From Elusimicrobiota bacterium (lineage in GTDB: Bacteria > Elusimicrobiota > Elusimicrobia > 2-01-FULL-59-12): 40,049 nt of DNA. Positions 23,646-40,049 of this stretch are shown piece after piece. Position 1 is the stretch's first letter; each line of letters opens with the position of its first letter. The notes beneath the pieces were generated by a model that saw only the letters and a program-made list of their open reading frames with translations, was not told the origin of the DNA and ran no database searches. The position numbers were made by a program, and so were the translations under genes. The DNA lies in contig JBBSDO010000002.1 in the NCBI GenBank assembly GCA_038241515.1, positions 1 to 40,049 on the forward strand, given 5' to 3'.

Positions 23646-23650
23646 GGCCT

Positions 23651-25479: not shown

Positions 25480-25681
25480 TCCCAGGAGTTGAGAGTTTGT
25501 TGAGTTTCGTCACTGTTCACTTAGGTTCTTTGAAAATACGACGGCAATAGCGGATTATTCCCGTCGGTAGTACTGAACGATAAACGCAAAGTCAGCGCAA
25601 GCTGGCGACGGTCGCTGGTATTTACGGCGATTACCTTCCAGATTTTTGGAGGGTGCAAAGCTTCCGGTCCTCAAGGAGTTT

Positions 25682-26320: not shown

Positions 26321-27076
26321 ATGGAAAATCGATTCACCCACGGCCGGGATTTATTATTTTGCGCGCGCGCGTGCGCGCGTATATTAAGTAGCAGCGCTAT
26401 TCGCCTGCCCGTCGAATGGGTAGGCTATTTGCTGTTATCGCTTTCGATTCTCCTGCCGAACGTGACGTTGGCTCAAGACACCCGAACCCTCCGCGGCGCC
26501 GATTTGAAAATTCACGGTGTGGCGTTGAATCGGAGCCTCGAACAACCCACCCGCGAAAAAATGCATATCGCCGACCACTGCGGCTACGAGAAAGCAACGG
26601 CAAGCGCGATGCCCCTCGTAGGCTCGGACGGCGCAACTGTCATACCGCATTTCCAATCGAAACGTGGCGTGGTCCTGCTTGAAGGCTATATTCAAGGCGT
26701 CGAACCCAAAGTCTTGCATACCGCCTTGCTGAGCACCTACAAAAATCTACCCACAGCCATTCGTGGCGAAATAGCCATGCAACCCAGTCCGCGTTACAAC
26801 CTGGCCATTGCCCTCGCAGCCACCGTCGCCGGCGACGGAGACTTGGCTCTGGCCAAAGGCGACTTCCTAACTCTCCAAACCGATGGCCAAATTTATGTGT
26901 ATTCATTGCCCGAAATCACCGTTCCTAGCGAGGGGCTTGTAACACTTTTCGCGGGGACCGATGACTCCCTCTACTTCGACGCAGCACTAACGCACCTGGC
27001 ACATTCCGGATCTTGCCTGGATCGAAAACCTCACGACGGCCAATTCAATCCGGCGAAAGGATTCCTATCCAAGTGA
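26321..27076 (+). CDS. hypothetical secreted protein
   Basis: GGGAG lies 4 nt before ATG 26321. A signal-like segment VGYLLLSLSILLPNVTLA|QD is followed by a ~200-aa domain of no recognised family. The stop TGA (27074-27076) is 2 nt from the giant ORF's ATG. Confidence 0.55.
   Translation: MENRFTHGRDLLFCARACARILSSSAIRLPVEWVGYLLLSLSILLPNVTLAQDTRTLRGADLKIHGVALNRSLEQPTREKMHIADHCGYEKATASAMPLVGSDGATVIPHFQSKRGVVLLEGYIQGVEPKVLHTALLSTYKNLPTAIRGEIAMQPSPRYNLAIALAATVAGDGDLALAKGDFLTLQTDGQIYVYSLPEITVPSEGLVTLFAGTDDSLYFDAALTHLAHSGSCLDRKPHDGQFNPAKGFLSK
26361..26384. repeat. 24-nt perfectly alternating purine-pyrimidine tract, (GC)5-GT-(GC)3-GT-ATAT
   Basis: GCGCGCGCGCGTGCGCGCGTATAT, read directly from the sequence. 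It lies in the 5' part of the 26321-27076 CDS and encodes CARACARI. Confidence 0.8.
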
Positions 27077-27078: not shown

Positions 27079-29946
27079 ATGCGGACGCATCGGATTCTGC
27101 CTCTCGGCCGCCTCCTCTCTTCACTCCAACAGTCTTTGTTGCGAAATTTCGCCTTGCTCGTGGGGGGGTTTTTGGCAGGCATAATTTTTACTTCACCTCT
27201 TCACGCTCGAACCTTCATCTGGAACGCGTCCGCAACCGGAAACTGGAGCGTCGCCAGTAACTGGAACATAAACGACGGCACGCTTCCGGGGCCAAACGAT
27301 GACGTGAGATTTACCACAACCGGTGGGACGAATAGGTCCTGCAACTTTGACGTCTCACCCTCTACGACTGTCGCCTCAATCACCATTGGCGCAGGCTACA
27401 CCACAACCCTTGCCATTAACGCCAATTGTCAGCTGGAAAGTCTGGGAAGCTTCAGTATGACAAACGGAGCCGTGGTGAACGTGAAAACGTCTAACGCCAT
27501 TTTGAATATTGACGGCAATTACAGCCAGTCGCTCGGTACGATAAATTTGAGTGGTGGAAAGGAACTGGATATCGGGGGTGATTTCTCGTTTACGGGAGGC
27601 ATTTTTGTACCGGGAATCACCGCCACAGTGCTCTTTACAGGCGGCTATTTGGGCGCCACCTCCCAAAACATCACCGGTGCTGCTGCCAATTTTTATAACG
27701 CGACTTTCCAGAACTCCGCCGTGACCTGGGTCCTTCAGAGCAGCATTACGGTCAACCACAATCTTTACATTCAATTCGGCACCCTCGATGCCAACACAGG
27801 CGTCGCGGGCTGCAACAATTCGAGCTGTAACATCCTCGTTACGGGCAGTTGGCAGAACGACGATAATTTCACCGCTCGCGTGGGTACGGTCACTTTTAAT
27901 GGCACGGTCAACACGTTAGGAATCCATAATTCCGGTAATAACAATTTCGCTCACTTGGTGTTCAACGGCGTTGGTGGAAAATGGACCCTCTATGATCCCA
28001 TTGGGGTGAATGGCAACCTCAGCTTGACCAACGGGACTCTCGACACTTCTGCCACATCGGGTGGAAATTGCAATGGCACCAGCTGCTCTTTTACCGTAGG
28101 CAACGCGTGGACAAATACCGGTGGAACTTTTAACGCCAACGGCAGCACAGTCACCTTTAATGGCGCTATCGTCAATCAACCGATCACTTCAAACACCAAT
28201 AACTTCAATAACGTGACATTGAATGGATCAGGTTCATGGGTCCTACAGGACACGATGACGGTGACATCCACAATGACGATCACCCAAGGAACCCTCAATC
28301 CCAATAACAAAGACATGGGTGTCGGGGGTTCCTGGTTAAACTCCGGAGGCACGTTCTCGGCGAGCGCGAGCACAGTTACTTTTACGGCAACGAATCTACA
28401 AAAAATTCAACCCAACAACAGCGCGTTTCCTAACGTCATCTTAAATGGATCGGGCGGCACGTGGACGGTTCAAAATGCTCTAAGTGTGGCCACCATGACC
28501 ATCACGCTAGGTACATTGAATTTGGGAAACAATGATGTCACGGTATCTCAAAGTTGGTTGAACAACGGCGGCGCGTTCAGTTTCGGGGCCAGCACAATCA
28601 CCTTCACAGGTACAACCGCCCAGAAGATCAAGTCAATCGGGCGCAATTTTAATAATGTCATTCTTAACGGTGCGGGCTCTTGGGTCCTTCAAGACTCGAT
28701 GACCGTGACTTCCGGCCTCACAATCACCCAAGGGACATTGGATCCCTCCGCGTCAAGCTACGGTATTTCGATTGGGAATAACTGGCTCAATAGCGGGACC
28801 TTTACCGCACGCTCAAGTACTCAGACATTTACGGGCTCCGGTTCAGGATTCGGAATTAAATCCAATGGAAAGCCATTTAACGACATTATTTTCAGTGGAG
28901 CAGGCTATTGGACCCTTCAAGATTCTATGACGGTCTCCAGTGCCACCCTGAACTCGGGGAATACGCTCGAACTTGCTGGTTTTGGAGCCGCCGTATCCAG
29001 TCTCACAGTTGCTGGTACCCTGGTCGTTCGAGGAACGGAAACCATAACAAACAAACCCAACTTCCTTACCGGTTCGAATGCGACCTACAACGCTTCGGCT
29101 GGATCCCCCGTCGTATTATCGACCTGGGTCTACCAAAATCTCACTATTAACGGTGACGCGGCAACTATCTTTTCTGTGCTTGGCGGATCTTTGACAATAA
29201 ATGGGAACTTGACGCTCAGCGGAGGAAGCCTAGATGCCACATCCACGAACAATTACGGAATGGGGATCGGAGGAAATTGGACAAACAGCGGAGGGGTTTT
29301 CCTTGCGCAACAGAGCACCGTGACATTCACAGGCACTTCTGCGGGTCAAACGATTACCTCTCGCGGCAGTCCGTTCAATAACTCTACTTTCAACGGCACC
29401 GGAGGCACCTGGATACTCCAGGACTCGATGACTGTAACGTCGACGATGACTCTCACGGCCGGTACGCTCGATACTGGCTCCAACCAAGCGATCGGGCTAG
29501 GCGGCGGTTGGGCCAATAACGGTGGCACGTTCCTCGTTAGGGGAAGTACCCTCAGCTTAACGGGAAATGTTCCGCAACTCATCAACAATAAAGGCCAAGC
29601 GCTCGGTGTGCTGGTTGACTCTAATATCGTAAACGGGCTAGGGACCGTGTTTACTTCGAGCTTTTCAGCCACCCAACTCTATATCAACACAGCGTCTTTA
29701 GGACAAGGGACTACCGTACAGTTTCTCGCCACCTCGACTTCAAGCATTACGACACTGAACTTGATCGGATCCAGCACAAACCCGATCTATCTACGTTCGA
29801 GCGCCAATGGCTCTGCATGGCTCCTGAAAAACACCGGTACGGAAAGCGTTTCGTTTGTCGATGTGCGTGATTCGAGCGCTACGACGAACCTGATCTACGC
29901 TTCCAACTCCCGCGATTCAGGCAACAATACGGGCTGGGTGTTTGGG
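27079..29946 (+). repeat. module 1 of the giant protein (signal peptide, at least five ~74-aa sub-repeats, C-cap)
   Basis: W(V/T)LQD-type sub-repeat cores lie near 28240, 28465, 28685, 28910 and 29410. The module ends with ...LRSSANGSAWLLKNTGTESVSFVDVRDSSA...SRDSGNNTGWVFG. Confidence 0.7.
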
Positions 29947-32900
29947 CAATTCATTTGGCAAGGGAGCCAGGACACGAATTGGTCAAATAGCGCTAACTGG
30001 AATTCAAAAGCAGTTCCTTCAACCAATGATGCTGCGACGATTTCCGCGTCCGCGACCCGCTGGCCGACTCTCACCCAAGACGTGACTATCTCCACTTTGT
30101 CCATCACCGCCGGATCAACTGTCACTCTCAATGGGTTTAACCTAACGCTGTCGAGTTTCACCAATTTTGGAACCCTCGTGTTTGCCGGCACCGAAACAAT
30201 TACAACTGCACCTTTGAACGTGGCCGGTTCAACCGTGACCTATACCAGCTTAGGTGCTTCCTTAATACTATCCACTTGGACCTACCGCAACCTCATCATC
30301 AATGGGGCGGGAACCTTTGCGGTCGTGGGAACCTCTTTGACCATCAATGAGGATCTCTCGATTAACGCAGGAACCCTGAACAGCGCCAACAAAGATATTG
30401 GGATAGCCGGGAATTGGGCTAATAACGGAGGGTCCTTCATCAACATGTCCACCGTGACCTTTATGGGGACCGCATCCGGTAAGGGAATTACGTCACGCGG
30501 CAGCAATTTCAATAACCTCATCCTGAATGGTTCCCTAGGGTATTGGACCTTGCAAGATTCCATGACGGTGGTCTCCTCCATGACGATCTCAGCAGGAACT
30601 TTAGACGCGTCGACGGGGAATTGCTTGGCGGGAACGGCCAGCTGCAATATTTCAGTCGCGGGGACCTGGCTTAATAGCAACACGGGCGTCTTTATCGCCA
30701 ATACCAGCACCGTGACGTTCAACGGGACCCTTACGGGGCAGAAAATCACTTCTCGAGGGAATCCCTTTTACAACCTGTCCATTAGTGGAGGGGCGAACGG
30801 CTTCTGGACCCTTCAGGATTCCATGACCGTGACGAACAACGTCACCTTGGCCCTCGGTAAATTGGATGCCTCGACGGCCAATTGCGCCGGCGCCAGTTGC
30901 AATCTGTCCGTGGCCGGAAACTGGCTCAATAACGGCGGCACTTTTGCCACACAACTCAGTACCGTGACGTTTAACGGCACGACCTCCGGTCACACGATCA
31001 CTTCCCGCGGCAATAACTTCAACAACGTCACAGTCAACGGCGTGAGCGGTTATTGGACATTACAAGACTCCATGACCTTAACCTCCACCATGACGCTCAC
31101 CGCCGGCACGTTCGACACCGGCAGCAACCAGGCGATCCGGCTCACGGGCGGTTGGGCCACGACGGCGGGGACTTTCATTGCCAATGGGAGCACCCTGACT
31201 CTCGTTGGAACAAATCTCCAAGTCATCAACGCGAAAGGACAAACCTTCGGAGTCATCGTCGACTCCAACACGACCGCCGGTGTGGTTGTATTCAGTTCCA
31301 GTTTTACGGCCGGCCAGTTTTACCTCAACGGCTCGGGGCTGGGACAAGCGACAACGGTCTACTTCCAGGCGGGTTCGACTGCTACGATTACGAGTTTTAA
31401 TATCATCGGCTCGGCTTCCAACGGAGTTTATCTCCGTTCGACGACGAACGGAAATTCCTGGTCTCTGTCGAATACGAGCACAAATACCGTGACTTTTGCC
31501 AACGCCTCGGATTCGGACGCCCGTTTGGCTACTCAAATCAGGGCCGTTTCGTCTACGGATGGGGGAAATAATAAAAATTGGAACTTTGTCGGTCAGTCCG
31601 GAACAAAACAGTGGGTCGGGGGAGCCACCACCGGTTCGAATACGAATTGGTCAAACGGAGCAAACTGGGATCTAGGCGTTCCATCGACGTTAGATACGGT
31701 TCTGATTCTGTCTTCAGCAACCACGATGCCGCAATTGACATCCAATGTGTCGGTCGCCAACGTCACAATCGGAACCGCCCCCGCTTCTCTCAATTTAAAC
31801 GGCTACAACCTATCTAACACGTCCAACCTAAGCAATAAAGGTAACTTGCAATTACAGGGAGGCGAATCGATTACTCCGGTGCCTTCATTTGTAGCCGGCT
31901 CCTCCGTAACGTATACGGGAGATGGGACGTCCGGAAATTTCATCGTCTATTCCACGTGGACTTACAGCAATCTCGTCATCACGGGAACTTTCGGCAACTT
32001 CGCCGTGACCGGCGCTGGTGCTATGACAATTGGACAGAGCCTGGCTATCAATTCCGGAAATGTCACGCTCCCCAATAATAACGCGGTCAATGTTACCGGC
32101 AATGTGGCCATTCAAGGGGCTCTCTCCAATCTCACGTTAAGCGGGTCGACGATCACGGTCGGAGGCAACTGGACGATCGGCCAAGCCAGTGACTTTACGC
32201 CGGGAAATTCCGTTCTGGCCTTCTCTTCCTCAAACCCGGGTCGCTCGATACAGCCCGCTGGAAGTTCCTTCAATTCGGTTACATTTAGCCAATCTGGCGG
32301 CAATTGGAATCTAGCAGGAGACATGAATACAACGGGCGCCACGATCAATTCAGGAGCCGGACTTACCCTCGCCGGCTTCAATCTAACAGTCTCCAGTTTT
32401 ACGATAGGCGGAACCCTGACACTGGGCGGCACGGAAAACGTCAGCACTAAGCCTAATAATCTTGTCGGTTCCACGGTGACTTACAACGGCGGAGGGCAAA
32501 CGATCGTCCTTTCGACCTGGTCTTACCGCAACGTGATCATCAATGGAGCCGGCACATTCAAGGTCAATGGCGGTTCCCTCACTATTAATGAAAGTCTCAC
32601 CTTGGCCGCTGGCACGCTGGATCCCACGGTCAGCAACTATACGATCGGCGTGGCAAACAACTGGACGAATAGCGGAGGAAGTTTCCTCGCTCGTGCCAGT
32701 ACCATCACCTTCACGGGGTCCTCTGCGGCGGGGACGATCCAATCCGCAGGTGTGCCTTTTGCGAACGTCCAGATAAACAGCATAGGAGGCGCTGGCTATT
32801 GGACGCTTTTGGATTCCATGACCGTAACGTCCTCCATGACTCTGACGGCGGGGACGTTCGACACCTCGGGCTCGAACAACCTGGGAATCTCCCTAGGAGG

Positions 32901-35900
32901 AAATTGGGCCAATCTCGGAGGAACCTTCGTAACGAACTTAAGCACTCTAACCTTGAACGGCACCCTTGCTCAGAAGGTGAACAACAATGGCCAGGCCTTT
33001 GCGCTCTTGCTGGATTCCAACACCTCTTCCGGCGGCGTGACCTTTTCTTCAAGTTTCTCGGCGACCGGCCTCACCATTAATGGCTCCGCCACCGGACTGA
33101 ATAGTGCCACCACCGTTTACTTTAATGCCGGATCGACATTCACGATTACAAACTTGACGCTGACCGGGGCCGCCGCCAAAAAGGTCTGGATGCGATCCAC
33201 ATTAGGTGGAAAAAACTGGATGTTCAACAACACGGGCGCCAACACCGTTACATTTGTCGATGTGGCGGACTCCGATGCGCGGCCGGGCACCTTAATTACA
33301 GCTACGAATAACGACACAGACTCCGGCAATAACAAAAATTGGAACTTCGGCACGACAGGTCAATTAAAAACCTGGTGGGGAAAATCGGATTCGGATTGGA
33401 CCAAAGGCTACAACTGGGACAACGGTACTCCCTCTCTTCAAGATTCGGCATTGATCGTTTCTACGGCAACCATTATGCCGATCATGACCTCCAATGTGAC
33501 GATCTCGACGCTGACGATCAATTCCGGCTCGACGGTCACGCTCAGTGGATTCAATCTGACTTTAACGAGTTTTACGAACGCCGGCGCCTTCGCCTTTTAC
33601 GGAACAGAAATTGTGAGTACAAAGCCTTACAGCATGGCGGGTTCAACGATCGCCTACACCGGTACAGCGACTTCGCTCGTTCTTTCAAGTTGGACCTATC
33701 GGAATTTGGTCATTAGTGGGAATGCAGGACTCTTTAACGTCGCCGGCGGCTCTCTAACCATCAATGAAAGCATCAACCTCGTCGCCGGCACCCTGGATGC
33801 GACGGCCAGTAACTACACCTTGGGTGTCGGCGCCAATTGGGTCAACAGCGGGGGTTCTTTCACTGCCCAGCAAAGCACCGTTAGCTTTACTGGTGTGGGC
33901 ACAGCTTACACCATTCAGTCCAGAGGCAACCCTTTCGGCCACGTTCAATTCAACAGTCCGGGGGGCGTTGGTTACTGGACCTTGCAAGACTCGATGACGG
34001 TGACCTCCTCGATGACCTTCACCGCCGGTACCTTAGACACCGGATCCAATTGTGCGGGTCTTGGCTGCAACCTTTCCGTGGGAGGATCCTGGTTACTTAA
34101 AAATACCGGCGTTTTTGTCGCGAACCAGAGTACGGTCACTTTCATTGGATCGACGGTTGGTCAACGCATCACCTCGGGCGGCAACAGCTTTAATCACGTA
34201 GCCTTCAGCGGAGCGGGAGGCTACTGGACGCTCCAAGATGCGATGGTGATCGCCTCCACCTTAACCCTGGCAGCGGGAACGATGGATGGAGGCGTTCAGA
34301 GTATTACCTTGGGTGGAGGCTTGGACAATAAAGGAGGTACTTTCGTTGCGAATGGAAGCACCTTGACCTTAAATGGCAGCGTTCCACAGAAAATTAATAA
34401 CGCCTTTGGTCAGGCCTTCGGAGTCCTTCTCGATTCCAATACCACAGGCGGTGGGGTGACGTTTAATTCGAGTTTTACAGCGACAGGCCTGACGGTCAAC
34501 GGAGCCGCCCAGAGCAGCCCCATGATGGTTTACTTTCATGCCGGATCCAGCTACACGATCACGAATTTGACTCTTACGGGTTCCAGTGGTCAACCGGTCA
34601 CTTTGCGATCGAGCATTAACGGTACCGCCTGGAAGCTAAAAAATACAGGAGCGGAAAGCGCTTCCTTCGTGGATGTTCAAGATTCCAATGCCAGCTCTAG
34701 CGCCAATCCGATTTACGCCTCCAATTCCACAAACTCCGGAAATAACGTGAATTGGAACTTCGGCCAATTCACCTGGCTGGGAACGGTGGATACCAACTGG
34801 TCGAATGCCGCGAACTGGAATTCCATATCGGTTCCGGCAGCAAACGATGCCGCCTCCTTATCTCCTGGGGCCCCGCGGATGCCGGTTTTAACACAAGCCG
34901 TTGCGATCTCAACGCTGACGATACCGGCGGGTTCTACGGTCACCTTGAACGGCTTCAGTCTGACTCTCTCCAGCTTCACGAATGCCGGGAGTGTAGTCCT
35001 TGTTGGAACTGAAGCAGTCAGCTCCGTTCCTTTGAACCTTGCCGGCTCCTCCGTCACCTACACCAGCAATGGGACGTCGATTGTTTTATCCACTTGGAGC
35101 TATCGCAACTTGCTCATTAACGGCGCCGGCACTTTCAAAGCCAGCGGTGCCCTCACCGTGGCGGAGAACTTCAACATCAATGCGGGAACGTTCAACAGCA
35201 ACAGCAAAGACATAACCGTGGGGCAGGATTGGTTGACGAACAGTGGTTCGTTTATCAATATCTCAACCGTCACTTTTACCGCCGGGGGAGCACAACAAAT
35301 TTCGTCTCGCAACAGTAACTTCGGTAATGTGATCTTCAACGGAGCGGGGGGTTACTGGACCTTGGTGGATTCCATGACGATTGTCTCCACCATGACGATC
35401 ACGCAAGGCACGCTGGATACCTCCGCGGCCAGCTGCGGCGGCGTCAGTTGCAACATCAGCGTTGCGGGCACCTGGCTCGTTAACAACAGTGGCGTTTTCG
35501 TGGCGAATACGAGCACGGTCACGTTCAACGGCACGGTCACTGGCCAGAAGATCACTTCCCGCGGCAGCAGCTTCAATAATATGACCCTCAACGGGACGGG
35601 CGGCTCCTGGACGCTTCAAGATCCGCTGACCCTCACTTCGACCATGACGCTCATCGCTGGCACGCTCAAGACTGGAACCGCTCAGCCGATTACGCTATCC
35701 GGAGGTTGGGCTAATACGGGAGGACTCTTCACGGCCTCCGGCCACACCCTTTATCTGACCGGCGCCAATCCCCAATACATCAACAACAGAGGGCAAGGCT
35801 TCGGCGTCCTGATCGATTCCAACACCACGACCGGCGGACTGATTTTCACCTCGAGCTTTTCCGCGACACAGCTCTTTGTGAACGGAGCCGGCCTCGGTAG

Positions 35901-38900
35901 CGCCACTTCGCTCTTCTTCAACTGGGGATCGACTTTTACGATCTCCAACTTTGCCGTGTCCGGGGCGAACGGCCAACTGGTCACGCTGCGTTCCAGCTCG
36001 AATGGCAAAGCGTGGTGGCTTAAGAATACCGGGGCGCAAAGCGTCTCTTTCGTCGATGTCCAAGACTCGAACGCCAGCTTGGGAAATATTATTTACACTT
36101 CCAATTCGACCGACTCCGGAAATAACGTGAATTGGAAGATCGGGCTCTTCACATGGAACGGAAATACGGACACCACCTGGTCGACCGCCACAAACTGGGA
36201 TTCGAATATTGTCCCGAGCGCGGGGGATGCCGCAACGATCCCCAGCTCCGCTTTGGTGATGCCGACCCTTACACAGGCGGTAACCATTTCTACCTTAACG
36301 ATCAATGCGGGGGCCCAGTTGACCTTAGGCGGTTATGGATTGTCGCTTTCCAGCTTCACGAATGCCGGCAATTTTGTCTTCGTGGGTACGGAAGCGGTTA
36401 CGACCGCGCCAAACAACTTACCCGGATCAAGCGTCACCTACACGAGCAACGGCAATTCGATTGTCTTGTCCACTTGGACCTTCCGCAATCTCCTTATCAA
36501 CGGCAACGGGACGTTCAAAGCCACCGGCGCATTGACGGTAAATGAAAACTTGGTTCTCGCGGCGGGGACGCTCGACATGACCGTTACTAATTATGGCCTT
36601 ACCTTAGGCAACAGCTGGACGAACACCGGCGGTTCCTTCCTGGCCCGCCAAGGTCTTCTGACATTCAATGGAACGACCGCAGGGAACTCGATCACCTCTC
36701 GCGGGATCCCTTTTAACCTGGTCACGTGGAACGGATCAGGCGGCTATTGGACCCTGCAGGATACCATGACCGTTATTTCCACCATGACGATTTCGGCGGG
36801 AACGCTCGATACCTCGGTCGCCAATTGCAGTGGTGGAAGTTGCAACATCGCTTTGGGCGGAACTTGGCTGAACAATGGCGCAGGCATTTTTGTGGCCAAT
36901 GGCAGCACCGTCACATTTACCGGTACGGCGGTCGGGCAAAAAATCACGTCGCGCGGCATTCCCTTTTATAGCTTAACCCTCAACGGCGGCGGGAGTGGAT
37001 TCTGGACGCTCCAAGACTCCATGACCGTCGTGGGTAACTTGACGCTGACCGGCGGAAAACTGGATATGTCCGGCGCCAATTGCGCTGGAACAAGCTGCAA
37101 TTTGTCGGTCGCGGGGACGTGGCTCAATAACGGAGGCACATTCCTCTCCCAGCTCAGCACCGTGACTTTAAACGGAACAGCGGCTGGGCAGTCCATCACG
37201 TCCCGCGGGAATGGCTTTAATAACCTCACGTTGAATGGCATCGGTGGGTATTGGACCCTAATCGATTCCATGACTGTCACCTCGACGATGACCATTACTC
37301 AAGGAACGCTTGATGCTTCGGCTTCGAACTGCACCGGCGTGAGCTGCAATATCACGGTCGGAGGGACCTGGTTGACGGGTCCGAGCGGGGTTTTTGTGGT
37401 CAACACCAATACGGTCTTGTTGACTAGCACTTTGGCCAACCAAAAAATAACCTCAGGCGCTAACTCCTTCAATAACGTCACGTTGAATGGAGGCGGAGGG
37501 GTCTGGACCCTTCAGGACCCGCTTACCTTGGTGTCGACGATGACACTGACTGCCGGCACCCTGAACACCGGTTCCAACCAATCGATCACGCTCGGTGGAG
37601 GGTGGGCCAATACCGGCGGTCTCTTCACCGCCAACAGCTCGAACTTCTCCCTCAATGGAAACGCCACGCAGGTGATTAACAATAAAGGCCAGGCCTTCAG
37701 CACATTGGTCGATTCAAACACAACGGCAGGAGGCGTCCTATTTACTTCCAGCTTCTCCGCCACCCTCTTCTCCGTCAATGGGGCGGCACTCGGTTTACCG
37801 ATGGCCGTGCAATTTTTGACGGGGTCCACAGTGACCATTACAAATCTCTCACTGACCGGCGCTAGCAACCAGAACATCACGCTGCGTTCAAGCCTCAATA
37901 CCAAGTCGTGGTGGCTGAAAAACACGGGAACTCAGACTGTCTCTTTTGTGGATGTTCAAGATTCCAATGCCAGCCTTAGCTCAAATCCCATCTATGCCAG
38001 CAATTCGAAGGATTCGGGCAACAACCTGAACTGGAAAATCGGTCAATTCACTTGGCTCGGTACGGTTGACACCAACTGGTCGAACGCCGCCAACTGGGAT
38101 TCCTTAGCCGTTCCAGGCGCCATGGATGGTCCCGCCATTTCCGCAGCCGCAGTACGGATGCCGATCCTCACACAGGCCGTGACGGTTTCAACCTTAACGA
38201 TCACCGCAGGCTCTACAGTGACCTTGAACGGCTTTAGTCTGAATCTTTCCAGTTTCACAAATGCTGGCAGTCTAGTCCTAGTCGGTACGGAAACTGTCAC
38301 GACGGCTCCGAATAACCTCGCGGGATCCAGTGTCACCTACGTCAGCACCGGCAATTCCATCGTCTTATCGACCTGGACGTACCGCAACCTCCTTATTAAT
38401 GGCTCAGGCTCCATGAAAGCCACCGGAGCTTTGACCGTCAGCGAAGGCCTCGCCATCTACGCCGGCTCCTTCAACGCCAATAGCAAAGATATCTCCGTCG
38501 GTTCGAGCTGGATCACAAACGCCGGCGCCTTCATCAATATCTCGACCGTCACCTTTACGGCCACAACCCCTCAAACCCTGCGCTCCAACAACAGCAACTT
38601 CAACAACATCGTCTTTAACGGATCCGGCGGATCGTGGGTCTTGCAAGACTCCATGACCGTTACCTCCACCATGACGATCACTCAAGGCACCCTCGATACT
38701 TCCGCCGCCAACTGCTCCGGCGCTAGCTGCAATATCGCCGTCGCCGGTTCTTGGCTCAATAGCGCCACCTTCACCGCTAACACCAGCACCGTCACTTTCA
38801 CGGGTGCCCTGGCCGGCCAGAAGATTACTTCCGGCGGCAGCAGCTTCAATAACTTGACTATCACCGGCGCCGGAACCTGGACTTTGCAAGACCCCTTGGT

Positions 38901-40049
38901 CTTGACCGCTACGGCCACCTTGACGGCAGGATCCCTTAAAACCGGATCGAATCAACCCATCACACTCGCTGGCGGCTGGGCTAATACCGGCGGCATCTTT
39001 ACGGCGGGCGCCACGACCCTGACGGTCAATGGCGCAGTTCCTCAGCTCATCAATAACAACGGCCAAGCCTTTGGCGTCATCGTCGATTCCAATACCAACA
39101 CCGGCAAAGGACTCGTATTCACATCCAGCTTCTCGGCCACACAGCTCTATGTCAACGCCGCTGGCCTTGCTCAGGCCACCACCATCCAGTTCTTGGCGGG
39201 ATCGACTGACACCATCACCACCCTCACTTTGGCCGGAATGGACGCTTCAAACCCCATCTACCTGCGATCCAGCGCCGCTGGCTCCTCCTGGTTCCTGAAA
39301 AATACCGGATCCGAAACAGTCTCTTTCGCAGACGTCAAAGATTCCAGTGCCACCGCCAACATCATCTACGCCGTCAATTCCACGAATTCCGGCAATAACC
39401 AAAACTGGAACTTCGGCCAGTTCACCTGGAACGGCAATACCGATACCAATTGGTCCAACGTCGCGAACTGGAATTCGAATGCCCTCCCAGGCACGAGCGA
39501 CGTCGCCACCATCCCGGCTTCGGCCACGCGCTGGCCTACTTTGACCCAGCCCGTCACGATCTCGGCTTTAACCATCACCGCCGGCTCCACTGTCACCTTG
39601 AACGGCTTTAACCTCACGCTCAATACCTTGAACAACTCCGGCGCTCTCGTGCTCGTTGGCACAGAAACCGTTTCGAGCGTCCCAACCAACTTGGCAGGTT
39701 CCACCGTCACTTACAACAGCACCGGCACTTCCATTGTCTTGTCCACCTGGACTTACAGAAACCTCTTCATCAACGGCTCCGGCACCTTCAAAGCCACTGG
39801 CCCTCTGACCATCAATGAAAACCTTATGGTGGGGGCCGGGACCTTCGACACGAATAATAAAGATATCACCGCCGCCCAAAGCTGGATCACGACCGGCGGC
39901 TCTTTCATCAACGTCTCGACTGTCACCTTTACCGCCACGACCCCTCAACAGATCACGTCCCGCGGATCCAACTTCGGCAATCTCATCTTGAACGGTTCCG
40001 GCGGATCGTGGGTCCTCCAAGATTCCATGACCGTCACCTCCTCCATGAC
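27079..40049 (+). CDS. giant secreted repeat protein (predicted beta-helix / adhesin-like), 5' portion only; at least 4323 codons with no stop before the window end
   Basis: The frame (coordinate mod 3 = 1) is open from ATG 27079 (GTG 27073 is also in frame) to base 40049. The ORF track lists no frame-1 plus-strand ORF after 27076, as expected if no stop occurs. Spot translations at 27079, 28201, 29920, 31561, 33301, 34741, 36121, 38017, 39361 and 39961 all stay in this frame and give the same motif family (STVTF.G, FNN..LNG.GG.W.LQDSMTV, GTLD). The N-terminus MRTHRILPLGRLLSSLQQSLLRNFALLVGGFLAGIIFTSPLHA|RTF looks like a signal peptide. Confidence 0.9.
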   Translation, partial: MRTHRILPLGRLLSSLQQSLLRNFALLVGGFLAGIIFTSPLHARTFIWNASATGNWSVASNWNINDGTLPGPNDDVRFTTTGGTNRSCNFDVSPSTTVASITIGAGYTTTLAINANCQLESLGSFSMTNGAVVNVKTSNAILNIDGNYSQSLGTINLSGGKELDIGGDFSFTGGIFVPGITATVLFTGGYLGATSQNITGAAANFYNATFQNSAVTWVLQSSITVNHNLYIQFGTLDANTGVAGCNNSSCNILVTGSWQNDDNFTARVGTVTFNGTVNTLGIHNSGNNNFAHLVFNGVGGKWTLYDPIGVNGNLSLTNGTLDTSATSGGNCNGTSCSFTVGNAWTNTGGTFNANGSTVTFNGAIVNQPITSNTNNFNNVTLNGSGSWVLQDTMTVTSTMTITQGTLNPNNKDMGVGGSWLNSGGTFSASASTVTFTATNLQKIQPNNSAFPNVILNGSGGTWTVQNALSVATMTITLGTLNLGNNDVTVSQSWLNNGGAFSFGASTITFTGTTAQKIKSIGRNFNNVILNGAGSWVLQDSMTVTSGLTITQGTLDPSASSYGISIGNNWLNSGTFTARSSTQTFTGSGSGFGIKSNGKPFNDIIFSGAGYWTLQDSMTVSSATLNSGNTLELAGFGAAVSSLTVAGTLVVRGTETITNKPNFLTGSNATYNASAGSPVVLSTWVYQNLTINGDAATIFSVLGGSLTINGNLTLSGGSLDATSTNNYGMGIGGNWTNSGGVFLAQQSTVTFTGTSAGQTITSRGSPFNNSTFNGTGGTWILQDSMTVTSTMTLTAGTLDTGSNQAIGLGGGWANNGGTFLVRGSTLSLTGNVPQLINNKGQALGVLVDSNIVNGLGTVFTSSFSATQLYINTASLGQGTTVQFLATSTSSITTLNLIGSSTNPIYLRSSANGSAWLLKNTGTESVSFVDVRDSSATTNLIYASNSRDSGNNTGWVFGQFIWQGSQDTNWSNSANWNSKAVPSTNDAATISASATRWPTLTQDVTISTLSITAGSTVTLNGFNLTLSSFTNFGTLVFAGTETITTAPLNVAGSTVTYTSLGASLILSTWTYRNLIINGAGTFAVVGTSLTINEDLSINAGTLNSANKDIGIAGNWANNGGSFINMSTVTFMGTASGKGITSRGSNFNNLILNGSLGYWTLQDSMTVVSSMTISAGTLDASTGNCLAGTASCNISVAGTWLNSNTGVFIANTSTVTFNGTLTGQKITSRGNPFYNLSISGGANGFWTLQDSMTVTNNVTLALGKLDASTANCAGASCNLSVAGNWLNNGGTFATQLSTVTFNGTTSGHTITSRGNNFNNVTVNGVSGYWTLQDSMTLTSTMTLTAGTFDTGSNQAIRLTGGWATTAGTFIANGSTLTLVGTNLQVINAKGQTFGVIVDSNTTAGVVVFSSSFTAGQFYLNGSGLGQATTVYFQAGSTATITSFNIIGSASNGVYLRSTTNGNSWSLSNTSTNTVTFANASDSDARLATQIRAVSSTDGGNNKNWNFVGQSGTKQWVGGATTGSNTNWSNGANWDLGVPSTLDTVLILSSATTMPQLTSNVSVANVTIGTAPASLNLNGYNLSNTSNLSNKGNLQLQGGESITPVPSFVAGSSVTYTGDGTSGNFIVYSTWTYSNLVITGTFGNFAVTGAGAMTIGQSLAINSGNVTLPNNNAVNVTGNVAIQGALSNLTLSGSTITVGGNWTIGQASDFTPGNSVLAFSSSNPGRSIQPAGSSFNSVTFSQSGGNWNLAGDMNTTGATINSGAGLTLAGFNLTVSSFTIGGTLTLGGTENVSTKPNNLVGSTVTYNGGGQTIVLSTWSYRNVIINGAGTFKVNGGSLTINESLTLAAGTLDPTVSNYTIGVANNWTNSGGSFLARASTITFTGSSAAGTIQSAGVPFANVQINSIGGAGYWTLLDSMTVTSSMTLTAGTFDTSGSNNLGISLGGNWANLGGTFVTNLSTLTLNGTLAQKVNNNGQAFALLLDSNTSSGGVTFSSSFSATGLTINGSATGLNSATTVYFNAGSTFTITNLTLTGAAAKKVWMRSTLGGKNWMFNNTGANTVTFVDVADSDARPGTLITATNNDTDSGNNKNWNFGTTGQLKTWWGKSDSDWTKGYNWDNGTPSLQDSALIVSTATIMPIMTSNVTISTLTINSGSTVTLSGFNLTLTSFTNAGAFAFYGTEIVSTKPYSMAGSTIAYTGTATSLVLSSWTYRNLVISGNAGLFNVAGGSLTINESINLVAGTLDATASNYTLGVGANWVNSGGSFTAQQSTVSFTGVGTAYTIQSRGNPFGHVQFNSPGGVGYWTLQDSMTVTSSMTFTAGTLDTGSNCAGLGCNLSVGGSWLLKNTGVFVANQSTVTFIGSTVGQRITSGGNSFNHVAFSGAGGYWTLQDAMVIASTLTLAAGTMDGGVQSITLGGGLDNKGGTFVANGSTLTLNGSVPQKINNAFGQAFGVLLDSNTTGGGVTFNSSFTATGLTVNGAAQSSPMMVYFHAGSSYTITNLTLTGSSGQPVTLRSSINGTAWKLKNTGAESASFVDVQDSNASSSANPIYASNSTNSGNNVNWNFGQFTWLGTVDTNWSNAANWNSISVPAANDAASLSPGAPRMPVLTQAVAISTLTIPAGSTVTLNGFSLTLSSFTNAGSVVLVGTEAVSSVPLNLAGSSVTYTSNGTSIVLSTWSYRNLLINGAGTFKASGALTVAENFNINAGTFNSNSKDITVGQDWLTNSGSFINISTVTFTAGGAQQISSRNSNFGNVIFNGAGGYWTLVDSMTIVSTMTITQGTLDTSAASCGGVSCNISVAGTWLVNNSGVFVANTSTVTFNGTVTGQKITSRGSSFNNMTLNGTGGSWTLQDPLTLTSTMTLIAGTLKTGTAQPITLSGGWANTGGLFTASGHTLYLTGANPQYINNRGQGFGVLIDSNTTTGGLIFTSSFSATQLFVNGAGLGSATSLFFNWGSTFTISNFAVSGANGQLVTLRSSSNGKAWWLKNTGAQSVSFVDVQDSNASLGNIIYTSNSTDSGNNVNWKIGLFTWNGNTDTTWSTATNWDSNIVPSAGDAATIPSSALVMPTLTQAVTISTLTINAGAQLTLGGYGLSLSSFTNAGNFVFVGTEAVTTAPNNLPGSSVTYTSNGNSIVLSTWTFRNLLINGNGTFKATGALTVNENLVLAAGTLDMTVTNYGLTLGNSWTNTGGSFLARQGLLTFNGTTAGNSITSRGIPFNLVTWNGSGGYWTLQDTMTVISTMTISAGTLDTSVANCSGGSCNIALGGTWLNNGAGIFVANGSTVTFTGTAVGQKITSRGIPFYSLTLNGGGSGFWTLQDSMTVVGNLTLTGGKLDMSGANCAGTSCNLSVAGTWLNNGGTFLSQLSTVTLNGTAAGQSITSRGNGFNNLTLNGIGGYWTLIDSMTVTSTMTITQGTLDASASNCTGVSCNITVGGTWLTGPSGVFVVNTNTVLLTSTLANQKITSGANSFNNVTLNGGGGVWTLQDPLTLVSTMTLTAGTLNTGSNQSITLGGGWANTGGLFTANSSNFSLNGNATQVINNKGQAFSTLVDSNTTAGGVLFTSSFSATLFSVNGAALGLPMAVQFLTGSTVTITNLSLTGASNQNITLRSSLNTKSWWLKNTGTQTVSFVDVQDSNASLSSNPIYASNSKDSGNNLNWKIGQFTWLGTVDTNWSNAANWDSLAVPGAMDGPAISAAAVRMPILTQAVTVSTLTITAGSTVTLNGFSLNLSSFTNAGSLVLVGTETVTTAPNNLAGSSVTYVSTGNSIVLSTWTYRNLLINGSGSMKATGALTVSEGLAIYAGSFNANSKDISVGSSWITNAGAFINISTVTFTATTPQTLRSNNSNFNNIVFNGSGGSWVLQDSMTVTSTMTITQGTLDTSAANCSGASCNIAVAGSWLNSATFTANTSTVTFTGALAGQKITSGGSSFNNLTITGAGTWTLQDPLVLTATATLTAGSLKTGSNQPITLAGGWANTGGIFTAGATTLTVNGAVPQLINNNGQAFGVIVDSNTNTGKGLVFTSSFSATQLYVNAAGLAQATTIQFLAGSTDTITTLTLAGMDASNPIYLRSSAAGSSWFLKNTGSETVSFADVKDSSATANIIYAVNSTNSGNNQNWNFGQFTWNGNTDTNWSNVANWNSNALPGTSDVATIPASATRWPTLTQPVTISALTITAGSTVTLNGFNLTLNTLNNSGALVLVGTETVSSVPTNLAGSTVTYNSTGTSIVLSTWTYRNLFINGSGTFKATGPLTINENLMVGAGTFDTNNKDITAAQSWITTGGSFINVSTVTFTATTPQQITSRGSNFGNLILNGSGGSWVLQDSMTVTSSM
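28201..28422 (+). repeat. representative sub-repeat unit (74 aa)
   Basis: NFNNVTLNGSGSWVLQDTMTVTSTMTITQGTLNPNNKDMGVGGSWLNSGGTFSASASTVTFTATNLQKIQPNNS. The next unit starts at 28423 (AFPNVILNG...). Confidence 0.75.
29947..31593 (+). repeat. module 2 (549 aa; N-cap, 3 sub-repeats, C-cap)
   Basis: It starts QFIWQGSQDTNWSNSANWNSKAVPSTNDAATI and ends ...GGNNKNWNFVG. WTLQD cores lie near 30545, 30805 and 31055. Confidence 0.7.
31594..33351 (+). repeat. module 3 (586 aa; divergent, with two GFNL-type segments)
   Basis: It starts QSGTKQWVGGATTGSNTNWSNGANWDLGVPSTLD and ends ...DSGNNKNWNFG. GYNL/GFNL segments lie near 31800 and 32370. Confidence 0.65.
33352..34764 (+). repeat. module 4 (471 aa; 2 sub-repeats)
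   Basis: It starts TTGQLKTWWGKSDSDWTKGYNWDNGTPSLQD and ends ...NSGNNVNWNFG. WTLQD cores lie near 33975 and 34225. Confidence 0.7.
34765..36144 (+). repeat. module 5 (460 aa; 2 sub-repeats)
   Basis: It starts QFTWLGTVDTNWSNAANWNSISVPAAND and ends ...DSGNNVNWKIG. Cores lie near 35355 and 35610. Confidence 0.7.
36145..38043 (+). repeat. module 6 (633 aa; 4 sub-repeats)
   Basis: It starts LFTWNGNTDTTWSTATNWDSNIVPSAGD and ends ...DSGNNLNWKIG. Cores lie near 36750, 37000, 37255 and 37505. Confidence 0.7.
38044..39417 (+). repeat. module 7 (458 aa; 2 sub-repeats)
   Basis: It starts QFTWLGTVDTNWSNAANWDSLAVPGAMD and ends ...NSGNNQNWNFG. Cores lie near 38640 and 38880. Confidence 0.7.
39418..40049 (+). 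repeat. module 8 (truncated by the window end)
   Basis: It starts QFTWNGNTDTNWSNVANWNSNALPGTSD and has the same layout as modules 2, 5 and 7 up to the first WVLQDSMTV core at about 40010. Confidence 0.7.

What the first reader, a model, noticed from the sequence alone, without database searches (positions are those of the whole stretch)
27079..40049. A giant ORF of at least 13 kb fills a third of the window and is absent from the supplied ORF track
The plus-strand frame with coordinate mod 3 = 1 appears uninterrupted from ATG 27079 to the last base, giving at least 4323 codons with the C-terminus outside the window. The track only reports ORFs that end in a stop, and it also drops ppc at the other edge for the same reason. 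What it shows for 27.2-40 kb is therefore about 60 short ORFs in other frames, most of them on the minus strand, which would lead a naive annotator to call the region a patchwork of hypotheticals. The real product begins with a plausible signal peptide and is a low-complexity, Thr/Ser/Asn/Gly-rich sequence almost free of charged residues, with strand-like motifs (STVTF.G, MTVTS.MTI..GTLD, W.N.GG.F). Such proteins are usually parallel beta-helix surface fibres or adhesins. I cannot place the repeat in a named family from memory. The NWS..ANW....P...D..I motif recalls the N-termini of autotransporter-associated beta-strand repeat proteins, but the ~75-85-aa unit does not match that 32-aa repeat.
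Basis: partly seen in the sequence, partly recalled or inferred. Interest (0 to 1): 0.85.

Follow-up and report, generated by a model that had tools for sequence, protein, structure and literature searches.

The report
Riboswitch-controlled giant beta-helix surface protein gene
The last third of this contig from an uncultured Elusimicrobiota bacterium is the first 13 kb of a real, much longer gene for a secreted fibre built from repeated beta-helix cassettes, apparently switched by a c-di-GMP-type riboswitch; it is an uncharacterised example of the known class of giant bacterial surface proteins.

Summary
Window 27079-40047 (+) is 4323 codons with no stop, and it runs off the end of what is a whole 40,049-bp contig of an Elusimicrobiota MAG.

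The product has a Sec-type signal peptide followed by eight cassettes of 460-950 aa. Each cassette is a cap with the motif W.G..NWS..NW...P..D, then 2-8 units of about 80 aa, then a tail of about 150 aa. AlphaFold2 models one cassette as an all-beta solenoid (pLDDT 85.5). It has no close solved relative. Pfam and NCBIfam models cover only the cap motif (Amnionless N-terminus).

The cassettes are old duplicates under purifying selection, not an assembly collapse. Cassette order is conserved in independent assemblies of relatives.

Syntenic orthologues reach at least 6166 aa. They continue into an Asp-box propeller-like domain and Ig-like arrays, and a nanopore contig suggests more than 16,000 aa.

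An exhaustive profile search finds 945 clusters at E&lt;=1e-30, all named "hypothetical".

A new result is a c-di-GMP-I-clan aptamer at 25575-25704. It is conserved in five syntenic loci and precedes two conserved small genes and the giant gene.

Best reading: a cyclic-dinucleotide-regulated giant surface fibre or adhesin. The export route across the outer membrane, the C-terminus and the ligand are unknown. Interest is moderate.

The parts
27079..40049 (+). 5' part (4323 codons) of a giant gene; open to the contig end
   Evidence: 0 stops. Identical in an independent Logan assembly over 23915-29123. Collinear with orthologue L011 over about 4000 aa.
27079..27207 (+). Sec-type signal peptide (aa 1-43; the cleavage site after LHA is a guess)
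   Evidence: Hydropathy peak at aa 22-38 and a basic n-region. Orthologues have similar leaders. No signal-peptide predictor was available.
27208..29946 (+). Cassette 0 (aa 44-956): cap, 8 units, tail
   Evidence: HMM map. Positional orthologue of cassette 0 of P0194 and of L011.
29947..31602 (+). Cassette 1 (aa 957-1508): cap, 4 units, tail
31603..33363 (+). Cassette 2 (aa 1509-2095): atypical, second cap-like segment, 2 units, tail
   Evidence: Its best match is the equally atypical cassette 2 of P0194.
33364..34764 (+). Cassette 3 (aa 2096-2562): cap, 3 units, tail
34765..36144 (+). Cassette 4 (aa 2563-3022): cap, 3 units, tail; the modelled cassette
   Evidence: AF2 pLDDT 85.5, pTM 0.82, all-beta. 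Fold searches.
36145..38043 (+). Cassette 5 (aa 3023-3655): cap, 5 units, tail
38044..39417 (+). Cassette 6 (aa 3656-4113): cap, 3 units, tail
39418..40049 (+). Cassette 7, cut by the contig end after the second unit
25575..25704 (+). c-di-GMP-I-clan riboswitch aptamer candidate (GEMM-I type, with a 61-nt insertion after the GNRA hairpin)
   Evidence: RF01051 30.2 bits (gathering 35), full model. The same clan is the top hit at the same syntenic place in L015, L044 and L009, and in L021 at 70.5 bits, above the gathering score of 59. 79 of 79 pair cells are paired and 5 pairs show compensatory changes.
25709..26236 (+). orfA, a 175-aa predicted membrane protein with no family; conserved first gene after the aptamer
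   Evidence: Homologues in L044, L009, L015 and L021. A conserved AUG lies 4-6 nt after the aptamer. Pfam and NCBIfam give nothing.
26321..27076 (+). orfB, a 251-aa protein with no family and a hydrophobic N-terminal segment; its stop abuts the giant gene's start
   Evidence: Conserved directly upstream of the giant gene in L044 (53 %), L012 (57 %) and L011 (49 %). Stop TGA 27074-27076 overlaps GTG 27073 and lies 2 nt before ATG 27079.
22821..25316 (+). ABC-2 type exporter (ATPase and two ABC2_membrane_6 permeases); conserved neighbour upstream of the aptamer; a functional link is not shown
   Evidence: Pfam. The same permeases lie upstream in L009, L015 and L021. They are absent between PMT_2 and orfA in L044.

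Best explanation
The ORF is the N-terminal 4323 residues of a much larger exported protein of an Elusimicrobiota bacterium.

**Shown**
- It is a genuine coding sequence under purifying selection.
- It is built from eight tandem cassettes. Each is a cap (W.G..NWS..NW...P..D), 2-8 units of about 80 aa, and a tail of about 150 aa.
- One cassette is confidently predicted to be a single beta-solenoid rod.

**Inferred: export and shape**
- After Sec export the cassettes form a long, largely uncharged, Thr/Ser/Asn-faced fibre.
- The part in the window would be roughly 75-100 nm if extended, assuming 22-27 residues per 4.8-Å rung.
- The segments between cassettes may be flexible.
- Paired Cys (C-x4-6-C) form small disulphide loops outside the cytoplasm.

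**Inferred: the missing distal part**
- By analogy with syntenic orthologues, the stalk continues into an Asp-box propeller-like domain, an IPT-like domain and a long array of Ig-like domains.
- The whole would then act as a giant surface fibre or adhesin.

**Inferred: regulation**
- Expression is probably controlled by a c-di-GMP-class riboswitch. It sits 4 nt before orfA, the first gene of an orfA-orfB-giant operon.
- This ties production of the fibre to cyclic-dinucleotide (sessile lifestyle) signalling.

**Unknown**
- How the protein crosses or attaches to the outer membrane.
For: **Coding and selection**
- 0 stops in 4323 codons, P about 1e-75.
- Between cassettes pN is 0.21-0.39 and pS 0.65-0.82; dN/dS is below 0.2 wherever dS can be computed.

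**Assembly**
- DNA repeats are only 60-74 % identical.
- The Logan contig is identical over 5.2 kb.
- Cassettes 0-3 are positional orthologues of cassettes 0-3 of P0194.
- The gene is collinear with L011.

**Fold**
- AF2 gives pLDDT 85.5 and pTM 0.82.
- Foldseek lists consist almost entirely of beta-helix or solenoid proteins.

**Export**
- The leader is signal-peptide-like and orthologue leaders are similar.
- All 22 Cys are paired.
- YidC has a periplasmic domain, so the cell is a diderm.

**Distal domains in orthologues**
- L011 is syntenic: ppc-mnmG...hemA lie on the same contig.
- It is at least 6166 aa, with an SSSVDGVTW propeller-like region and Big_13/Big_3_3-like repeats.
- L009 and L041 are collinear with it across frameshifts and continue for tens of kb.

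**Regulation**
- The aptamer is found in five syntenic loci, one above Rfam's gathering score, with covariation.
- orfA and orfB are conserved.
- The orfB stop abuts the giant gene's start.
- An HD-GYP-type response regulator lies at 12218-13240.
- From established knowledge: GEMM-I riboswitches commonly control adhesin, pilus and biofilm genes.
Against: - There is no direct evidence of surface location, binding or expression.
- The C-terminus of this gene is missing.
- No secretion or anchoring hallmark was found in complete family members. That covers an autotransporter barrel, a TPS domain, RTX repeats, PEP-CTERM, LPXTG and Por_Secre_tail. For the Pfam models this rests on the C-terminal domains and L027 only; for the NCBIfam models it rests on three complete proteins (P0195, L013, L019).
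- The cassette junction is modelled with low confidence (pLDDT below 50), so a rigid rod is not supported.
- The window's aptamer scores below Rfam's gathering threshold. It also has C where the other four have the G of AAAGGCAAA, a ligand-contacting position by my recollection of the Vc2 structure. Ligand identity and function of this copy are therefore uncertain.
- Co-transcription of orfA, orfB and the giant gene is inferred from spacing only.
Confidence: 0.6

Rival explanations
1. It is a structural envelope component, such as an S-layer, sheath or matrix scaffold, rather than an adhesin. The fibre would self-assemble or bind the cell's own glycan coat.
For: - The composition is low-charge and Thr/Ser/Asn-rich.
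- The S-layer protein RsaA is among the (non-significant) Foldseek hits.
- Neighbouring genes are for envelope glycans: an epimerase, a PMT_2 GT-C, a GT2 and an ABC-2 exporter. A PMT_2 glycosyltransferase and epimerase-family genes also neighbour the gene in L044.
- Wzy_C lies downstream of shorter family members.
Against: - S-layer proteins are usually abundant, much smaller and not cassette arrays.
- The distal propeller and Ig arrays in orthologues look like binding modules.
- The glycan genes lie upstream of the riboswitch, outside the putative operon.
- N-X-S/T sequons are not enriched: 133 against 127 ± 9 in shuffles.
Confidence: 0.15
2. It is a tandem array of carbohydrate-active or carbohydrate-binding beta-helix domains, like pectate-lyase or tailspike domains. 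In that case it would be a giant polysaccharide-degrading or glycan-capturing enzyme.
For: - The parallel beta-helix fold class is shared with lyases and tailspikes.
- Orthologues carry an Asp-box (sialidase-like) motif distally.
Against: - No Pfam Beta_helix, NosD, Pectate_lyase or glycoside-hydrolase hit, even at E<=10.
- D+E is only 3.1 %.
- The invariant columns are G, N, S, T, W, F, P and similar residues, with only a few D or E. That pattern points to structural rather than catalytic conservation.
Confidence: 0.07
3. It is an artefact: a chimeric or collapsed assembly of several shorter paralogous genes, or a decaying pseudogene.
For: - The contig ends inside the gene.
- The Logan assembly breaks 2 kb into it.
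- Two syntenic orthologues from short-read assemblies also end at contig ends.
Against: - The repeats are too diverged to collapse: 60-74 % at the nucleotide level.
- There are no stops in 13 kb, and dN/dS is low.
- Cassette order is conserved in an independent assembly of another organism.
- An uninterrupted ORF of 6166 aa exists in L011, and a complete 4490-aa family member in L013.
- A nanopore contig shows the same layout.
Confidence: 0.03

Closest known systems
Giant repetitive bacterial surface adhesins (FHA/HMW1/EtpA two-partner-secretion beta-helices; autotransporter passengers such as IgA1 protease, EspC, SepA; tapirins)
   Same: Very long secreted proteins. The bulk is a parallel beta-helix or solenoid stalk, with functional domains at one end. 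These are the proteins Foldseek lists first.
   Different: Matches are only at the level of fold class (E >= 0.47, TM <= 0.29). There is no TPS domain. Complete family members have no beta-barrel. The stalk is cut into self-capped cassettes rather than forming one continuous helix.
RTX / LapA / MpIBP / SiiE-type giant adhesins exported by type 1 secretion
   Same: Megadalton scale, and a long repetitive extender carrying distal ligand-binding domains. In some species (LapA) these adhesins are controlled by c-di-GMP.
   Different: Those have no Sec leader. Their extender is made of Ig-like domains, and they carry acidic Ca-binding RTX repeats and a C-terminal T1SS signal. Here there is a Sec leader, a beta-helix extender, almost no acidic residues and no HemolysinCabind hit.
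Proteins with the Amnionless N-terminal / G8 / PATR-type 'W..NW...P..D' beta-helix cap (Pfam PF14828, PF10162, PF12951)
   Same: The cap of each cassette matches Amnionless profile positions 7-69. The summed score is 41.3 bits, E = 1e-10. Relatives hit G8.
   Different: Only about 60 residues match. A single cap scores 23 bits, below the 30.4 cut-off. The units and tail match nothing, and the 32-aa PATR repeat is absent.
c-di-GMP-I (GEMM-I) riboswitches upstream of adhesin and pilus genes (RF01051 and the RF03167 variant)
   Same: The full-length aptamer architecture is present: P1, a GNRA hairpin, the CGCAAAGC junction and the P3 stem. It lies on the coding strand, directly in front of a surface-protein operon.
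   Different: Four of the five copies score below the gathering threshold. Three carry an insertion of about 45-60 nt. The window's copy has C at the G20-equivalent position. The controlled gene would be one of the largest reported for this riboswitch class (my judgement from memory).
Giant genes of Omnitrophota and the 'huge proteins' of Elusimicrobiota/Planctomycetota (bioRxiv 10.1101/2023.11.21.568195; PMC11573180)
   Same: Genes from uncultured phyla that are fragmented in short-read assemblies. They have signal peptides and large beta-helix regions. Elusimicrobiota are explicitly reported as enriched in proteins of more than 5000 aa.
   Different: The Omnitrophota proteins have different domain sets (C39/S8 peptidases, SecA-like domains, an antiparallel beta-helix). 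The papers read here do not describe the cassette family found in this window.

Membership tests
Autotransporter-associated beta strand repeat proteins (PATR, PF12951) | Tandem ~32-aa PATR repeats detectable by the Pfam model | tested here: not met
   No PF12951 hit at E<=1 on the whole ORF or at E<=10 on the pieces. One distant hit of the family search carries it (P0025).
Type Va autotransporters | C-terminal 12-stranded beta-barrel translocator (about 250-300 aa) | not testable with these tools
   The C-terminus lies off the contig. The family members with a C-terminus end instead in a ~145-aa domain with no family that finishes ...TVTAxxP; these are L013, L019, L027 and P0195 (complete) and P0001, P0004 and P0005 (fragments). 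That domain and L027 gave no Pfam hit.
Two-partner secretion exoproteins (FHA/HMW1) | N-terminal TPS domain (Haemagg_act) and a TpsB partner gene | tested here: not met
   No Pfam hit in aa 1-956 at E<=1. None of the Pfam-scanned neighbouring genes hit a POTRA or ShlB-type model; orfA and orfB matched no family at all.
T1SS RTX adhesins | No Sec leader; Ca-binding GGxGxD repeats; C-terminal secretion signal; adjacent ABC, MFP and TolC genes | tested here: not met
   A Sec-like leader is present. There is no HemolysinCabind hit and D+E is 3.1 %. The neighbouring ABC transporter is of the ABC-2 type, without MFP or TolC. The C-terminal signal cannot be tested.
Pfam Amnionless (PF14828) | Match over the 442-position profile, i.e. 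the whole ectodomain and TM region | tested here: not met
   Only profile positions 7-69 match. The whole-protein score passes the gathering cut-off only by summing three caps. A single cap scores 23 bits against a cut-off of 30.4.
Right-handed parallel beta-helix proteins (fold class) | Stacked rungs of short beta-strands forming a solenoid | tested here: met
   The AF2 model has pLDDT 85.5 and about 40 short strands with no helices. Foldseek hits are almost all beta-helix or solenoid proteins, and the best BFVD hits include 'Parallel beta-helix repeat' proteins at E = 1e-4.
c-di-GMP-I riboswitch clan (RF01051/RF03167, CL00126) | Score at or above the curated gathering threshold | tested here: inconclusive
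   Window 30.2 bits against 35. L015, L044 and L009 score 34-37 against 59. The syntenic L021 copy scores 70.5 against 59.
c-di-GMP-I riboswitch clan (RF01051/RF03167, CL00126) | Conserved P1, GNRA hairpin, junction and P3 architecture, with covariation | tested here: met
   20 model pairs mapped on A3 give 79 of 79 cells paired and 5 pairs with changes on both sides. Slid controls give 26-46 % paired. There are only 4 sequences, three of them close.
c-di-GMP-I riboswitch clan (RF01051/RF03167, CL00126) | Binds c-di-GMP and regulates the downstream gene | not testable with these tools
   This needs binding and reporter assays. The window's copy has C at the G20-equivalent position.
Known C-terminal sorting signals (PEP-CTERM, LPXTG, Por_Secre_tail/T9SS CTD) | Model hit or motif at the extreme C-terminus | tested here: not met
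   Tested only on relatives with a C-terminus: no NCBIfam or Pfam hit. The tails have no TM segment or basic end. It cannot be tested for the window's own gene.

The most novel reading that the evidence does not exclude
The window holds only the first quarter to half of one of the largest bacterial genes, roughly 9,000 to more than 16,000 codons. The product would be a ~100-nm stalk of self-capped beta-helix cassettes carrying an Asp-box propeller and dozens of Ig-like domains. It would be made from a single operon with two unknown partner proteins (orfA, orfB) under a cyclic-dinucleotide riboswitch. It would be exported by a route that uses none of the recognised adhesin secretion signals. 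That would imply an undescribed export or anchoring system for giant fibres in Elusimicrobiota and related uncultured phyla.
Probability: 0.2. Interest if true: 0.65.

Novelty: new variant of a known kind. Interest (0 to 1): 0.45.

Why it matters
Giant genes are systematically broken and mis-annotated in metagenome assemblies. Here three independent short-read assemblies end inside the same gene. Automatic tracks then show a patchwork of spurious short ORFs.

This case defines a large protein family with no curated model. The exhaustive search found 945 clusters (50 % identity) at E&lt;=1e-30, and those checked came from Elusimicrobiota, Wallbacteria and Peregrinibacteria. The family has a clear cassette grammar.

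The case also supplies a regulatory handle: a c-di-GMP-class riboswitch conserved in five loci. That makes the function testable, and it links cyclic-dinucleotide signalling to surface architecture in a phylum with almost no cultured members.

It also flags two conserved partner genes and a conserved C-terminal domain as candidates for an unknown export or anchoring mechanism.

Tried and rejected
- **Extending the contig.** An exact search for the last 90 nt in JGI metagenomes found nothing. The GTDB representative genomes do not hold this genome. The Logan contig stops 2 kb into the gene. The C-terminus could not be recovered.
- **Word-indexed protein search.** It returned only 30 hits, all under 1200 aa, and suggested a rare family. 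The exhaustive profile search contradicted this with 9370 hits. I therefore reject the rarity impression.
- **N-glycosylation idea.** Sequons are not enriched: 133 against 127 ± 9 in shuffles.
- **Rigid continuous rod.** The tail-cap junction model has pLDDT below 50 at the junction and pTM 0.64. This reading is not supported, though also not refuted.
- **Tandem DNA repeats.** TRF finds nothing relevant. The repeats are diverged.
- **Searches that found no family or structure.**
  - PDB sequence and profile searches gave nothing.
  - Pfam gave nothing for unit, tail, the C-terminal domain, orfA or orfB, and NCBIfam nothing for orfA or orfB.
- **Apparent C-termini '...GDLHLNL*' in the nanopore contig L041.** They turned out to be frameshift artefacts, because the sequence continues in another frame.
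- **Calling the aptamer the 'GGC' variant.** Although RF03167 scores best in four loci, all five copies keep A in CGCAAAGC, where that model's consensus has G. I therefore assign it only to the clan.
- **Sample origin.** Literature searches for the sample accessions found nothing.
Full report
**1. The observation**

Translating window 27079-40047 on the + strand gives 4323 codons and no stop. The other five frames of the same stretch contain 102-371 stops. With the local base composition an open frame of this length has a chance of about 1e-75.

The preceding in-frame stop is at 26962. Possible starts are TTG 27013, GTG 27073 and ATG 27079. An independent gene call on a Logan contig chose 27079.

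The ORF is missing from ORF lists because such lists drop ORFs that run off the sequence. The ORF listing reports nothing of 150 aa or more on the + strand after 27076. It reports 54 short ORFs of 60 aa or more across 27.2-40 kb, mostly on the minus strand.

Every window protein I looked up has 'longest contig 40049'. The window is therefore an entire contig and the gene is cut by the end of the assembly.

**2. Organism and setting**

MnmG of the window (887-2755, minus strand) is 74-83 % identical to many metagenomic proteins. Nearly every hit that carries an organism name is 'Elusimicrobia/Elusimicrobiota bacterium', and the one exception is an unclassified 'bacterium'. At 90 % identity the window's proteins are essentially alone in their clusters: of eight looked up, seven are singletons and the eighth shares its cluster only with the same gene from this contig under a different start.

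The contig is ordinary chromosome:
- ppc (partial), mnmG, an amidase and a CDF transporter
- yidC with a periplasmic domain, hence a diderm
- mnmE, ald and an RR-HD_5 (HD-GYP type) regulator
- resB/ccsA, hemA and hemC
- an epimerase, a 730-aa PMT_2 glycosyltransferase and a GT2
- an ABC-2 exporter
- two ORFs without any family
- the giant gene

**3. Anatomy of the protein**

The N-terminus looks like a Sec signal peptide: four Arg, then FALLVGGFLAGIIFT, then SPLHA|RT. Orthologues begin with comparable leaders.

The rest is hierarchical. There are eight cassettes, with boundaries at aa 44, 957, 1509, 2096, 2563, 3023, 3656 and 4114. Each cassette has three parts:
- a cap of about 100 aa, beginning W.G..(D)TNWSN.ANW....P...D.A.I
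- 2-8 units of 75-88 aa (STVTF.G...Q.I.S.G..FNN...NG.GG.WTLQDSMTVTS.MT...GTLD...I.V.G.W.N.GG.F)
- a tail of about 150 aa (VDSN..GG..F.SSF.AT...LRSS.NG..W.LKNTG...VSFVDV.DS.A...A.NS.DSGNN.NW.FG)

The last cassette is cut after its second unit.

All 22 cysteines are paired: ten C-x4-6-C loops plus C88/C117. This fits an oxidising, extracytoplasmic location; that is an inference.

N-X-S/T sequons are not enriched beyond composition.

**4. Real gene or assembly artefact?**

- Cassettes share only 53-68 % nucleotide identity over their aligned length, and the longest DNA repeats are 60-74 % identical. TRF finds nothing relevant.
- Synonymous sites between cassettes are saturated (pS 0.65-0.82) while pN is 0.21-0.39. 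Where dS is computable, dN/dS is below 0.2. The cassettes are therefore old duplicates kept by selection on the protein.
- A Logan assembly of SRR24807096 is identical to the window over 23915-29123.
- Cassettes 0-3 find their best matches in cassettes 0-3, in the same order, of P0194. P0194 is a 3041-aa partial protein of another Elusimicrobiota MAG. The shared atypical cassette 2 is included in this match.
- The whole ORF is collinear with L011 at 41-45 % identity over about 4000 aa.

I reject collapse or chimerism.

**5. Fold and family**

AlphaFold2 was run on cassette 4 (aa 2563-3022), using an alignment of six window cassettes and four homologues. It gives pLDDT 85.5 and pTM 0.82, with about 40 short strands and no helices.

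- Foldseek against the PDB finds nothing better than E = 0.47. The list is almost entirely beta-helix or solenoid proteins: tapirins, the IgA1-protease/EspC/SepA passengers, RsaA, EtpA, HMW1 and tailspikes.
- Against BFVD the best hits are uncharacterised phage proteins and 'parallel beta-helix repeat' proteins (E = 1.5e-5, TM 0.47).
- Sequence and profile searches of the PDB find nothing.
- Pfam reports only Amnionless, profile positions 7-69 of 442, which is the cap motif. The score is summed over three caps, and a single cap scores 23 bits against a cut-off of 30.4.
- Units and tail match nothing, even at E<=10. NCBIfam gives nothing. PATR is not hit.
- A model of the tail-to-cap junction is poor in the tail (pLDDT 40-70) and below 50 across the junction. 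I therefore cannot say whether the cassettes stack rigidly.

**6. How common is the family?**

The word-indexed search gave only 30 short hits. The exhaustive profile search of 1.84 billion cluster representatives tells a different story. It gave 9370 hits at E<=1e-3, 3937 at E<=1e-10 and 945 at E<=1e-30, many of them 2000-7700 aa long.

All named examples are 'hypothetical protein', from Elusimicrobiota, Candidatus Wallbacteria and Candidatus Peregrinibacteria.

The literature already notes that Elusimicrobiota have a high propensity for proteins of more than 5000 aa (PMC11573180). Giant genes of Omnitrophota have been described (bioRxiv 10.1101/2023.11.21.568195). Neither of these two papers describes this cassette family.

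**7. What lies beyond the contig end?**

*Syntenic orthologues.* L011 is on JADMIO010819936.1, a 60,014-bp contig that also carries ppc-mnmG-amidase...yidC-mnmE-ald...hemA. It has one uninterrupted ORF of at least 6166 aa that again runs off the contig end. Its layout is:
- seven cassettes, up to about aa 4051
- a ~430-aa region with an Asp-box motif (SSSVDGVTWNS)
- an IPT-like segment
- a long series of Ig-like repeats (weak Big_13/Big_3_3 hits)

The nanopore contig L009/L041 has the same neighbours and is collinear with L011 aa 3771-6162 across alternating frames. This is one gene broken by frameshift errors. Plus-strand fragments with further repeat types continue for more than 40 kb without ordinary genes. 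That suggests at least 16,000 aa, though this is inference from an error-prone assembly.

P0194/L044 is a third syntenic orthologue, and it too is cut at a contig end.

*Shorter, complete family members.* L013 (4490 aa), L027 (2476 aa), L019 (1247 aa) and P0195 (2221 aa) end in a conserved ~145-aa domain that finishes ...TVTAxxP. This domain matches no Pfam model, and NCBIfam finds no sorting signal in the complete members. It has no TM segment or basic tail.

No autotransporter barrel, TPS domain, RTX repeat, PEP-CTERM, LPXTG or T9SS tail was detected in any family member tested. The route across the outer membrane is unknown.

**8. Regulation and partner genes (new)**

*The aptamer in the window.* A permissive Rfam scan of 25200-27400 gives one hit: c-di-GMP-I (RF01051) at 25575-25704 on the + strand. 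It covers the full model at 30.2 bits against a gathering score of 35, with a 61-nt insertion after the GNRA hairpin.

*The same element in other loci.*
- In L015, L044 and L009 the top hit of a 56-kb scan is the same clan (RF03167, 34-37 bits, E = 4e-5 to 3e-4). In each case it lies directly in front of the orfA homologue.
- In L021 the arrangement is ABC-2 permease, aptamer, orfA, a 272-aa ORF and the beta-helix giant. There the aptamer scores 70.5 bits, above the gathering score of 59.

*Structure test.* I mapped the 20 canonical pairs onto the four-sequence alignment. All 79 of 79 cells pair and 5 pairs show compensatory changes, against 26-46 % pairing in slid controls. There are few sequences, so this is supportive rather than conclusive.

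*Sequence details.* All five copies keep CGCAAAGC and UUACC. Only the window's copy has C instead of G in AAAGGCAAA, and the Logan assembly confirms the base. By my recollection of the Vc2 structure this is the G20 ligand contact, so the ligand of this copy is uncertain.

*The partner genes.*
- A conserved AUG lies 4-6 nt after the aptamer. The true start of orfA is therefore ATG 25709 (175 aa), and control is probably translational.
- orfA is conserved in L044, L009, L015 and L021.
- orfB (26321-27076) is conserved directly upstream of the giant gene in L044, L012 and L011.
- Its stop abuts the giant gene's start.
- No convincing terminator lies in between.

*Reading.* I read this as an operon: aptamer, orfA, orfB, giant gene. 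From established knowledge, GEMM-I riboswitches typically govern adhesin, pilus and biofilm genes. That supports a role as a surface fibre or adhesin. The HD-GYP-type regulator at 12218-13240 shows the organism has c-di-GMP signalling.

**9. Verdict**

It is an uncharacterised, fairly widespread family within the known class of giant beta-helical surface proteins, in a phylum already known for huge proteins.

What goes beyond the ordinary:
- the cassette grammar
- the likely true size of the gene
- the absence of any recognised secretion or anchor signal
- the conserved riboswitch-orfA-orfB module

Novelty: new variant of a known kind. Interest: 0.45.

Noticed in passing
window 25575-25704 (+); L021 3570-3664; L015 1689-1781; L044 8537-8673; L009 1600-1740: A c-di-GMP-I-clan riboswitch aptamer is conserved in front of orfA in five syntenic loci. 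The window's copy is below the gathering score and has C at the G20-equivalent position. Three copies carry a 45-60-nt insertion that forms extra hairpins.
   Followed up: yes
window 25709-26236 and 26321-27076: Two genes with no family (orfA is membrane-like; orfB has a hydrophobic N-terminal segment) are conserved between the aptamer and the giant gene. The start of orfA in ORF lists (25646 or 25682) overlaps the aptamer and is probably wrong; ATG 25709 fits the conserved AUG.
   Followed up: partly
window 18554-25316: An epimerase, a 730-aa PMT_2 (GT-C) glycosyltransferase, a GT2 and an ABC-2 exporter sit just upstream. hemC-PMT_2 followed by sugar-modifying genes is also upstream in L044, which lacks the GT2 and the ABC-2 exporter. 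The ABC-2 permeases are upstream in L009, L015 and L021. They may modify the envelope or the Ser/Thr-rich fibre, but no link was shown.
   Followed up: partly
window 12218-13240: A response regulator fused to an HD_5 (HD-GYP-type) domain. It is a likely c-di-GMP phosphodiesterase on the same contig as the riboswitch.
   Followed up: no
window 1-880 (minus strand): The N-terminal part of PEP carboxylase (LTAHPTE motif) is cut by the left contig end. Like the giant gene, it is invisible to ORF lists.
   Followed up: yes
L013 ~15,000-15,445; L019, L027, L016, L022; P0001, P0004, P0005, P0195: A conserved ~145-aa C-terminal domain (..YDFG....AI.VTN.GN..E.F.L...W.GT....F.L.G.F....W..L.MP.....Q.M.VTVTA..P*) ends the shorter complete family members. 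It has no Pfam model, and NCBIfam finds no sorting signal in those members. It is a candidate anchoring or sorting domain.
   Followed up: partly
L002, L007, L008: There is a second conserved context for shorter family members: YceG, FecR-like, GAF histidine kinase, TldD/PmbA, the beta-helix protein, then a Wzy_C (O-antigen-ligase-like) gene. The first two are seen only in L007 and L008; L002 is cut 5' and its first ORF was not scanned.
   Followed up: no
L041 4062, 5955, 7848, 9740: The nanopore contig of the orthologue contains tandem repeats of about 1.89 kb, and a further ~115-aa repeat type (LQILLPGET..PG...GKTG.P) continues for tens of kb. If this is one gene, it is at least 16,000 codons.
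   Followed up: partly
window end 40049; L011 end; L044 end: Three independent short-read assemblies of related organisms all terminate inside this gene, although the repeats visible on the contigs are too diverged to explain a break. The cause is unexplained; it could be near-identical repeats further downstream or strain variation.
   Followed up: no
The word-indexed protein search returned no protein longer than about 1300 aa and badly under-counted this family. Apparent rarity from that tool should not be trusted for giant repetitive proteins.
   Followed up: yes
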